Assembly (NCBI RefSeq): GCF_053078305.1
Contig: NZ_CP166879.1
Direction: 5' to 3' (one strand)
DNA: 64,000 bases
In this document: positions 63,001-64,000 of the stretch, piece after piece
Layout: each line of letters opens with the position of its first letter
Numbering within the stretch: the first letter of the stretch is position 1
Position numbers: made by a program

Positions 63001-64000
63001 CCCAGTGGTTGGTCATCGCACCGCGACCAAATGTTGGAGCAAGACTTGCTACCGTTGGTCCGTGTCAGACGCGCGCCTGGTTGTCTACCGCCAGCATCCC
63101 GAGGGAGCGGGCAAATTTCTGGGTCAGCATCCCGGTTTCGTTGCTGGCACCGGAGGCACACAGCATACCGGTAGAAAGCCAACGGTTTACCGTTACACCC
63201 TGCTCGTTCTTTTCAATAAAGTTAGCGTCACGGTCAGCTTTCATCAGCTTAGCAATACGGGAGAATGCTTCTTCCCAGCTAATGCGCTGCCATTTGTCAG
63301 AACCTGGCGCACGATATTCCGGGTAGCGCAGACGGTTTTCGCTGTTGACGTAATCCAGCAAACCGGCCCCTTTCGGGCACAGCGCACCACGGCTTACCGG
63401 ATGATCCGGGTCACCTTCAATGTGATAAATCGCTTCTCTGGCGTTTTTTGCGCCATCACCCAGGCTATACATCAATAGCCCGCAACCTACGGAACAGTAT
63501 GTGCAGGTGTTACGGATCTCTTTAGCGCGTAATAATTTGTAGTTTCGCGCCTGAGCCAGTGCTTGCTTCGGGGCAAAGCCCAATGCCGCTACTGTTGTTC
63601 CAGCCATACCGCCCGCGCAGATTTTAAAAAATTGTCTGCGACTGACGTCCATTGCTTTCCTCTTTTTTCAGGGGTATTACTGCGCGAGGAAACTAACAGT
63701 AAAATTCTGAATCTTTTTGCGCGAAATCAAAAAGAACACGTGTTTGCCACAAAATAATCCGCCTGCGCAAATTGACCTACCTCAATAGCGGTAGAAAAAC
63801 GCACCACTGCCTGACAGGCCAGTTAAAAAAATGCTATAAAATTCAGCTTAATTTTTAACGGCAAGAGAGACAAAACAGCGAGCATGACACGACAAAAAGC
63901 AACGCTCATAGGGCTAATAGCGATCGTCCTGTGGAGCACGATGGTAGGATTGATTCGCGGTGTCAGCGAGGGGCTCGGCCCGGTCAGCGGCGCAGCTGCT

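What the first reader, a model, noticed from the sequence alone, without database searches (positions are those of the whole stretch)
63022..63067. fdnG selenocysteine codon and downstream SECIS-like hairpin
The in-frame TGA at 63065-63067 (minus strand) falls exactly where FdnG carries selenocysteine, and the 40 nt downstream can fold into a small-loop hairpin. An automated annotation could miscall this as a pseudogene or two ORFs.
Basis: partly seen in the sequence, partly recalled or inferred. Interest (0 to 1): 0.35.

Follow-up and report, generated by a model that had tools for sequence, protein, structure and literature searches.

The report
fdnG selenocysteine codon and SECIS hairpin
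The in-frame TGA is the well-known selenocysteine codon (residue 196) of E. coli formate dehydrogenase-N, and the hairpin after it is the known recoding signal, so the finding is correct but ordinary.

Summary
Confirmed and already known. On the minus strand an ORF starts at ATG 63652. It meets TGA at 63067-63065 as codon 196 and continues in frame to the stop at 60605, giving 1015 codons. The product is 98.65% identical in DNA to K-12 fdnG. It matches PDB 1KQF chain A with the TGA aligned to Sec196, and it scores 1622 bits on NCBIfam TIGR01553 (cut-off 814).

The 59 nt at 63012-63070 (-) match Rfam SECIS_3 (RF01989) over the full model: 84.3 bits against a gathering score of 63, E 4.5e-20. 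The features reported to matter for SelB binding sit at the same distances from UGA as in fdhF:
- bulged U17
- apical loop G23 U24
- an 11-nt spacer

The folding energy alone is not exceptional (z -1.45). The real support is evolutionary:
- The 59-mer is identical in K-12 fdoG, a paralog that is 75% identical overall.
- It is identical in 5432 of 5433 matching E. coli records.
- It is identical in 22 loci of other enteric genera whose flanks are only about 78-81% identical.
- Across 72 distinct homologous 59-mers the apical helix is 97.8% paired, with compensatory changes at two pairs made of third-codon positions.

RefSeq PGAP annotates a single CDS.

The parts
60605..63652 (-). fdnG, formate dehydrogenase-N alpha subunit: 1015 codons plus stop, read through one in-frame UGA
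   Evidence: Translation. NCBIfam TIGR01553 equivalog 1622 bits, cut-off 814, residues 2-1014 (with Sec entered as C). PDB 1kqf_A E 7.5e-216 over aa 1-318. 98.65% nt identity to K-12 fdnG with 4 aa differences.
63065..63067 (-). UGA codon 196, read as selenocysteine (the Mo ligand of FdnG)
   Evidence: Position read directly. Aligned to X196 of 1kqf_A and to the Sec of Desulfovibrio FdhA. fdoG has TGA at the same codon.
63012..63070 (-). SECIS element: full-length match to Rfam SECIS_3 (RF01989), 59 nt, beginning 3 nt before UGA
   Evidence: 84.3 bits, gathering score 63, E 4.5e-20, model 1-59/59. Identical 59-mer in K-12 fdoG, in 5432/5433 E. coli records and in 22 loci of other enteric genera.
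63022..63064 (-). Base-paired part of the SECIS (lower plus upper helix)
   Evidence: MFE folds. Rfam consensus structure. The lower helix is only 84-85% paired across homologs and its register is ambiguous.
63036..63053 (-). Apical minihelix GGUAGCAAGUCUUGCUCC (nt 15-32 counted from the U of UGA), the inferred SelB-binding unit, 11 nt after UGA
   Evidence: Folds alone as ((.(((((...))))))) at -4.5 kcal/mol, z -2.06. 97.8% of cells paired in 72 distinct homologs, with compensatory changes at two pairs.
63051..63051 (-). Bulged U17
   Evidence: Unpaired in the Rfam consensus and in the MFE fold. Same position as the bulged U17 of fdhF (PMC8659212). Its invariance in alignment A1 is by construction of the search pattern.
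63043..63045 (-). Apical loop G23 U24 C25
   Evidence: Loop. G and U are invariant in all 72 distinct homologs although they lie outside the search pattern, and the U is a third-codon position (AGU Ser / GGU Gly).
63554..63652 (-). Twin-arginine (Tat) signal region of FdnG (MDVSRRQFFK..., aa 1-33)
   Evidence: Read from the translation. Identical to 1kqf_A. The extent of the signal peptide is from general knowledge and was not tested.
59708..60592 (-). fdnH (beta subunit), next gene of the operon
   Evidence: 294-aa ORF. Same layout as the annotated fdnH in strain A16 and in K-12.
59062..59715 (-). fdnI (gamma subunit), last gene of the operon
   Evidence: ORF. The start is placed by analogy with the 654-nt fdnI that overlaps fdnH by 8 nt.

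Best explanation
This is the selenocysteine recoding site of Escherichia coli fdnG. UGA codon 196 is decoded as selenocysteine rather than as a stop, because the mRNA immediately 3' of it forms a bacterial SECIS hairpin. The proposed mechanism is as follows. The apical minihelix (nt 15-32 after the U of UGA) presents a bulged U17 and a G23-U24 loop, 11 nt from the codon. This minihelix is bound by the C-terminal domain of the specialised elongation factor SelB. SelB carries Sec-tRNA(Sec) and GTP. When the ribosome melts the lower helix and places UGA in the A site, the tethered SelB delivers Sec-tRNA(Sec) in competition with release factor 2. The inserted Sec196 is the molybdenum ligand in the active site of formate dehydrogenase-N.

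Shown here: the codon, the frame, the homology, the RNA-family membership, and selection on the RNA structure. Inferred from established knowledge of the E. coli fdhF/fdnG system: SelB binding, Sec insertion and the catalytic role.
For: Frame and codon.

Protein identity: 1kqf_A is identical over aa 1-318 except D295N, with Sec196 on the TGA. TIGR01553 scores 1622 bits.

RNA family: SECIS_3 at 84.3 bits against a gathering score of 63, full model.

Geometry: a 3-nt loop starting with G, a 5+2 bp upper stem, 19 nt between UGA and the loop, and an MFE of -12.7 to -14.6 kcal/mol. All four criteria of the bSECIS consensus model quoted in PMC13188914 are met. U17, G23 and U24 and the 11-nt spacer are as described for E. 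coli in PMC8659212.

Selection at the RNA level:
- The longest identical run between fdnG and fdoG is 71 nt and starts at codon 195. The next longest is 36 nt, and overall nt identity is 74.8%.
- Codons inside the element are ones fdnG otherwise avoids: GGA 4/86, AGT 3/56, CTT 2/81, CCA 7/51.
- The 59-mer is 100% identical in 5432/5433 E. coli records.
- It is also identical in 22 loci of other genera whose flanking 300 nt are 72-96% identical.
- In 72 distinct homologous 59-mers the apical helix is 97.8% paired. Pair 21-33 is GC 54 / AU 14 / CG 2 / GU 2 and pair 24-30 is AU 49 / CG 19 / GC 2. All four columns are third-codon positions. Pairing falls to 26-49% when partners are slid by 1-3 columns.

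Context: the gene sits in yddG / fdnGHI / yddM-adhP and is annotated as one CDS in RefSeq.
Against: The folding energy is not significantly better than shuffles (z -1.45).

The lower helix is only 84-85% paired, and two registers fit about equally well.

The homolog set was collected with a pattern that fixes 16 of the 59 columns, and its members are phylogenetically related. The shuffle control is therefore not a probability.

SelB, selA, selC and selD are not in the window. The Rfam scan finds no tRNA of any kind there. Sec insertion itself cannot be shown by computation.
Confidence: 0.97

Rival explanations
1. The TGA is a genuine stop. On this reading fdnG is a pseudogene, or two separate genes of 195 aa and 803 aa.
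For: A mechanical ORF finder gives exactly those two ORFs. Both halves are deposited as separate proteins in public collections.
Against: The TGA is at the same codon in the solved FdnG structure and in K-12 fdnG and fdoG. It is followed by a full SECIS_3 match. The 59-mer containing it is identical in 5432/5433 matching E. coli records. The 21 codons between the TGA and the next ATG are conserved in frame. The catalytic and cofactor domains would be split between the two halves.
Confidence: 0.01
2. UGA is recoded, but the hairpin is incidental. Its conservation would only reflect the strongly conserved peptide HGPTVASLAPTFGRGAMT around the active site, not an RNA signal.
For: The peptide is indeed nearly invariant across the homologs. 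The folding z-score is weak.
Against: Amino-acid constraint cannot explain identity at synonymous sites: 21 consecutive degenerate codons are identical between paralogs whose background identical-codon fraction is 0.58. It cannot explain the use of otherwise avoided codons. It cannot explain an invariant third-position U24 in AGU/GGU. It cannot explain compensatory double changes between pairs of third-codon positions.
Confidence: 0.02
3. The 71-nt identity between fdnG and fdoG comes from recent gene conversion between the paralogs rather than from purifying selection on the RNA.
For: Two copies per genome with an identical block.
Against: The same 59-mer is identical across distant enteric genera (Photorhabdus, Yersinia, Klebsiella, Enterobacter, Citrobacter and others), with flanks at 72-87% identity. 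The block coincides exactly with the SECIS model. Conversion could add to this but cannot explain the cross-genus identity. This rival concerns one line of evidence only, not the function.
Confidence: 0.05

Closest known systems
E. coli K-12 fdnG Sec196 / SECIS (Berg, Li, Heider & Stewart 1991, J Biol Chem 266:22380, cited in PMC13188914; structure PDB 1KQF)
   Same: Same gene, same codon, same 59-nt element. There is no difference within about 90 nt of the UGA. Same operon and neighbours.
   Different: Strain-level variation only: 41 nt and 4 aa differences over the gene (D295N, F342L, A366E, A666S relative to K-12), none in the recoding site.
E. coli fdoG SECIS (formate dehydrogenase-O)
   Same: 59/59 identical element, same Rfam family and score, TGA at codon 196.
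   Different: A paralogous gene: 74.8% nt and 76.9% aa identity, at a different locus next to fdhD and fdhE.
E. coli fdhF SECIS (Rfam SECIS_2, RF01988), the experimentally dissected paradigm
   Same: UGA followed by CACGG, an 11-nt spacer, GG-U17 bulge, GCA stem, and G23 U24 C25 U26 at the same distances. The mechanism via SelB is the same (PMC8659212).
   Different: A different Rfam family: the window scores only 28.8 bits on SECIS_2 against a gathering score of 70. fdhF has a 4-nt GGUC loop and a 3-bp apical stem, against a 3-nt GUC loop closed by an extra A-U pair and a 5-bp stem here. The lower stem sequence differs.

Membership tests
Rfam SECIS_3 (RF01989) | Covariance-model score at or above the curated gathering score (63 bits), full-length match | tested here: met
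   84.3 bits, E 4.5e-20, model 1-59/59, window 63012-63070 (-).
Rfam SECIS_2 (RF01988, fdhF type) | Score at or above the gathering score (70 bits) | tested here: not met
   28.8 bits. K-12 fdhF itself scores 87.1. The element works like the fdhF SECIS but belongs to the sister family.
Bacterial SECIS consensus model (bSECISearch criteria as quoted in PMC13188914) | Located in the coding region immediately 3' of an in-frame UGA | tested here: met
   The paired region starts 1 nt after UGA, inside the fdnG reading frame.
Bacterial SECIS consensus model (bSECISearch criteria as quoted in PMC13188914) | 3-9 nt apical loop and 4-16 bp upper stem | tested here: met
   3-nt loop GUC. 5 bp, then bulged U, then 2 bp.
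Bacterial SECIS consensus model (bSECISearch criteria as quoted in PMC13188914) | A G in one of the first two loop positions, usually followed by G or U | tested here: met
   The loop is G23 U24 C25. G and U are invariant in 72 distinct homologs.
Bacterial SECIS consensus model (bSECISearch criteria as quoted in PMC13188914) | 16-37 nt between UGA and the apical loop | tested here: met
   19 nt (positions 4-22) between UGA and G23.
Bacterial SECIS consensus model (bSECISearch criteria as quoted in PMC13188914) | MFE of -7.5 kcal/mol or lower | tested here: met
   -12.7 kcal/mol (43 nt) and -14.6 kcal/mol (49 nt).
E. coli SelB-binding minihelix (fdhF paradigm, as summarised in PMC8659212) | About 17-nt minihelix starting at nt 15, 11 nt after UGA, with bulged U17 and G23, U24 in the loop | tested here: met
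   GGUAGCAAGUCUUGCUCC occupies nt 15-32. U17 is bulged, and G23 and U24 are in the loop.
E. coli SelB-binding minihelix (fdhF paradigm, as summarised in PMC8659212) | Physical binding by SelB and SelB-dependent UGA read-through | not testable with these tools
   Needs gel-shift or reporter assays. Inferred from identity to the K-12 element.
RNA structure under selection | Compensatory base changes that keep the helix | tested here: met
   Apical helix: 97.8% paired, and 2 of 7 pairs have double changes (37 cells). Slid controls pair at 26-49%. Lower helix: inconclusive, 84-85% paired and two registers fit.
Formate dehydrogenase-N alpha subunit FdnG (NCBIfam TIGR01553 equivalog) | Whole-protein score above the curated cut-off | tested here: met
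   1622 bits against 814.2, residues 2-1014 of 1015.
Formate dehydrogenase-N alpha subunit FdnG (NCBIfam TIGR01553 equivalog) | Sec at the Mo-ligand position (U196 in 1KQF) | tested here: met
   The TGA aligns to X196 of 1kqf_A and to the Sec of Desulfovibrio FdhA.
Formate dehydrogenase-N alpha subunit FdnG (NCBIfam TIGR01553 equivalog) | fdnGHI operon in the fdn (not fdo) chromosomal context | tested here: met
   fdnH and fdnI lie downstream, yddG upstream, and yddM-adhP beyond. No fdhD or fdhE is present. 98.65% identical to K-12 fdnG against 74.8% to fdoG.
Selenoprotein gene | Sec machinery (selA, selB, selC, selD) present in the same genome | not testable with these tools
   The machinery lies outside the 64-kb window. 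The Rfam scan of the window finds no tRNA-Sec. It is expected because the window is 99% identical to E. coli chromosomes.

The most novel reading that the evidence does not exclude
The element is conserved far beyond what the published minimal SelB-binding requirements would need. All 59 nt are identical in both paralogs and across enteric genera whose flanks have diverged by 15-28%. This includes the lower-stem and internal-loop positions that reviews describe as freely variable. The pattern leaves room for an additional, undescribed constraint on the FDH-N/FDH-O type SECIS. Examples would be tuning of ribosome pausing or of Sec-insertion efficiency, or a second binding partner. In addition, the lower helix uses different registers in enteric and in beta/gamma-proteobacterial lineages.
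Probability: 0.12. Interest if true: 0.3.

Novelty: already known. Interest (0 to 1): 0.08.

Why it matters
It adds nothing new to biology. The fdnG UGA was shown to encode selenocysteine in 1991, the enzyme structure with Sec196 is in the PDB, and the RNA element is a curated Rfam family.

Its practical value is for annotation quality. Gene callers that do not know about Sec split the gene, and both halves are abundant in public protein collections, one copy even under a wrong name. The site is also a clean positive control for any pipeline that looks for recoding signals. It shows that folding energy alone would have missed it, whereas a covariance model, synonymous-site conservation and covariation all detect it.

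Tried and rejected
(1) Folding energy as a test of reality. z is -1.45 for the 49-mer and -0.49 for the proven fdhF SECIS, so this test is uninformative and I did not use it as evidence.

(2) Membership in the fdhF-type family SECIS_2 is rejected at 28.8 bits against 70.

(3) A single register for the lower helix. The Rfam register and the window's MFE register fit the homologs about equally (85.2% and 83.6% paired). Neither is established, and only the apical helix is claimed.

(4) The first PDB search failed because the translated reference contained the stop. I repeated it with X at position 196.

(5) One structure string had the wrong length and was repeated.

(6) Four of the pattern hits in genome contigs (L017, L018, L061, L069) were chance matches outside any FDH gene and were removed.

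(7) The review PMC6103685 is not held. The SelB determinants are cited from PMC8659212 instead.

(8) I did not examine Cys-for-Sec homologs, because the DNA pattern required TGA. That NapA and Cys-type FDHs carry Cys at this position rests on general knowledge only.

Full report
**Observation**

Read on the minus strand, the window has an ATG at 63652 preceded by a purine-rich ribosome-binding stretch. TGA occupies 63067-63065 in the context GTC TGA CAC GGA. Translation of 63652-60605 gives 1015 codons with a single internal stop at codon 196, and the frame stays open for 819 more codons. A mechanical ORF list splits the gene at that point into a 195-aa ORF (63065..63652) and an 803-aa ORF (60605..63016).

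**The protein**

With X at position 196, residues 1-318 match PDB 1kqf_A (E. coli nitrate-inducible formate dehydrogenase, major subunit) at E 7.5e-216 with one substitution (D295 for N). The X of the deposited chain, which is selenocysteine 196, falls on the TGA. The Sec of the Desulfovibrio FdhA chains aligns to the same column, in the motif QAR(V/I)-U-H(G/S)PTV.

The full-length product, with C entered for Sec, scores 1622 bits on the NCBIfam equivalog TIGR01553, 'formate dehydrogenase-N subunit alpha' (cut-off 814).

The gene is 98.65% identical to K-12 fdnG, with 41 nt and 4 aa differences. None lies within about 90 nt of the UGA. It is only 74.8% identical to K-12 fdoG.

The neighbours are fdnH, fdnI, yddM and adhP on one side and yddG on the other, as in annotated E. 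coli chromosomes. The whole window is collinear with E. coli chromosomes at 99% identity, covering lsr, hipA, ydeP, pqqL, dosP, ddp, maeA, adhP and fdn.

**The RNA**

The 49 nt from UGA fold at -14.6 kcal/mol into three parts:
- a lower helix;
- an internal loop;
- an apical minihelix, GG-U-AGCAA / GUC / UUGCU-CC.

Against dinucleotide shuffles this fold is unremarkable (z -1.45). The sub-hairpins reach z of about -2.1, and the proven fdhF SECIS reaches only -0.49. 'It can fold' is thus true but weak.

The decisive result is the Rfam scan. Window 63012-63070 (-) matches SECIS_3 (RF01989) over the whole 59-position model at 84.3 bits (gathering score 63, E 4.5e-20). The fdhF-type SECIS_2 model gives only 28.8 bits (gathering score 70). 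SECIS_3 is the only gathering-level Rfam hit in the 64-kb window.

In K-12, fdoG carries the identical 59-mer with the same score, and fdhF hits SECIS_2 at 87.1 bits.

Counting from the U of UGA, the window has G15 G16, bulged U17, stem A18-A22, loop G23 U24 C25, and stem U26-U30 followed by C31 C32. fdhF has G15 G16 U17, G19 C20 A21 and G23 U24 C25 U26 at the same positions.

These are the features that PMC8659212 describes as required in E. coli: a minihelix 11 nt from UGA, a bulged U17, and G23/U24 in the loop, with U17 and G23 contacting SelB. All four criteria of the general bacterial SECIS model quoted in PMC13188914 are also met:
- loop of 3-9 nt and stem of 4-16 bp;
- G at the start of the loop;
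- 16-37 nt spacing;
- MFE of -7.5 kcal/mol or lower.

**Selection on the RNA rather than only on the peptide**

There are four independent lines of evidence.

(a) Paralog comparison. In a codon alignment of fdnG with fdoG, the longest run of identical nucleotides is 71 nt and begins at codon 195. The next longest is 36 nt. Only 58% of same-amino-acid degenerate codons are identical gene-wide, yet all 21 such codons after the UGA are identical.

(b) Codon choice. The codons in the element are ones fdnG otherwise avoids: GGA 4 of 86 Gly, AGT 3 of 56 Ser, CTT 2 of 81 Leu, CCA 7 of 51 Pro.

(c) Conservation across strains and genera. The 59-mer is 100% identical in the best match of 5432 of 5433 E. 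coli records, with a median of two places per genome. It is 59/59 identical in 22 loci from other genera, including Photorhabdus, Yersinia, Klebsiella, Enterobacter, Citrobacter, Superficieibacter and E. albertii. Their flanking 300 nt are on average 78% and 81% identical.

(d) Covariation. Of the hits, 117 lie in FdnG-like genes and 4 are chance hits. Together with the window they give 72 distinct 59-mers (alignment A1). On the Rfam structure, the results are as follows:
- The apical helix is paired in 97.8% of cells.
- Pair 21-33 is G-C in 54, A-U in 14, C-G in 2 and G-U in 2.
- Pair 24-30 is A-U in 49, C-G in 19 and G-C in 2.
- All four of these columns are third-codon positions (Val/Ala and Ala/Leu), so the protein does not dictate them.
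- Sliding the 3' partners by 1-3 columns drops pairing to 26-49%.
- The loop G and U are invariant although they lie outside the search pattern, and the U is a synonymous site.

Three caveats apply to line (d). The pattern fixes 16 columns, including U17. The sequences are related, so the shuffle control is not a probability. The lower helix is only 84-85% paired, and the Rfam and MFE registers fit equally well.

**Mechanism**

The sequence-level facts above are shown. The remainder is inferred from the established E. coli system. SelB bound to GTP and Sec-tRNA(Sec) binds the apical minihelix. The ribosome unwinds the lower helix as UGA enters the A site. The tethered factor then delivers Sec in competition with RF2, and the hairpin refolds (summaries in PMC13188914 and PMC8659212). 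Sec196 is the molybdenum ligand of FDH-N, as in the 1KQF structure. The Sec machinery genes are not in the window and could not be checked.

**Annotation**

RefSeq PGAP records annotate fdnG as one 3048-nt CDS without a pseudogene flag. An exact look-up shows that the 195-aa N-terminal piece and the 803-aa C-terminal piece are each on record as separate proteins on at least 1000 contigs. One 195-aa member is named 'sulfate ABC transporter substrate-binding protein'.

**Verdict**

This is the textbook fdnG selenocysteine codon with its SECIS_3 element (Berg et al. 1991, cited in PMC13188914; PDB 1KQF; Rfam RF01989). It is already known, so its interest is low. The only mildly open points are why the whole 59-mer, and not just the minihelix, is frozen across enteric genera and both paralogs, and which register the lower helix really uses.

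Noticed in passing
window 63068-63652 (-) and 60608-63016 (-): The two halves of fdnG on either side of the Sec codon are deposited as separate proteins of 195 aa and 803 aa, each seen on at least 1000 contigs. One 195-aa record (EFN8991448.1) is named 'sulfate ABC transporter substrate-binding protein', an evident misannotation.
   Followed up: partly
window 58835-59061 (fdnI-yddM intergenic region): This 227-nt spacer contains REP/BIME-like palindromic units (for example GCCTGATAAGCGTAGCGCATCAGGC and CCGGATGCGTCGTGAATGCCTTATCCGG). It matches a median of 20 places per E. coli genome. Only 2945 of 5425 genomes have the full spacer, and K-12 has a longer gap (407 nt against 227 nt), so the repeat content here varies between strains. 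Terminator-like hairpins (AAAATGGCGC...GGCGCCATTTT) flank it on both sides.
   Followed up: partly
window 63717-63730 (-) and 63778-63793 (-), upstream of fdnG: TTGATTTCGCGCAA resembles an FNR site (TTGAT-N4-ATCAA, with a 3/5 match in the second half-site). TACCGCT-AT-TGAGGTA is an inverted pair of NarL-type heptamers with 2-bp spacing. Both would fit the known anaerobic, nitrate-induced control of fdnG. They were read from the sequence and compared with consensus sequences from memory only.
   Followed up: no
alignment A1 columns 7-16 with 41-51 (window 63020-63064): The lower SECIS helix seems to use different registers in different lineages. Enteric sequences pair A12 with U45 (the MFE register). 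Most beta/gamma-proteobacterial sequences pair C12 with G44 (the Rfam register). Neither register fits all sequences.
   Followed up: partly
window 60605-64000 compared with E. coli genomes: The best match to the fdnG-yddG stretch in 5426 complete E. coli genomes is 99.5%, and only 314 records reach 99%. For window 1-25000 a single record reaches 99%. The source strain is therefore not closely represented among complete RefSeq genomes, and different parts of the window have different nearest strains.
   Followed up: no
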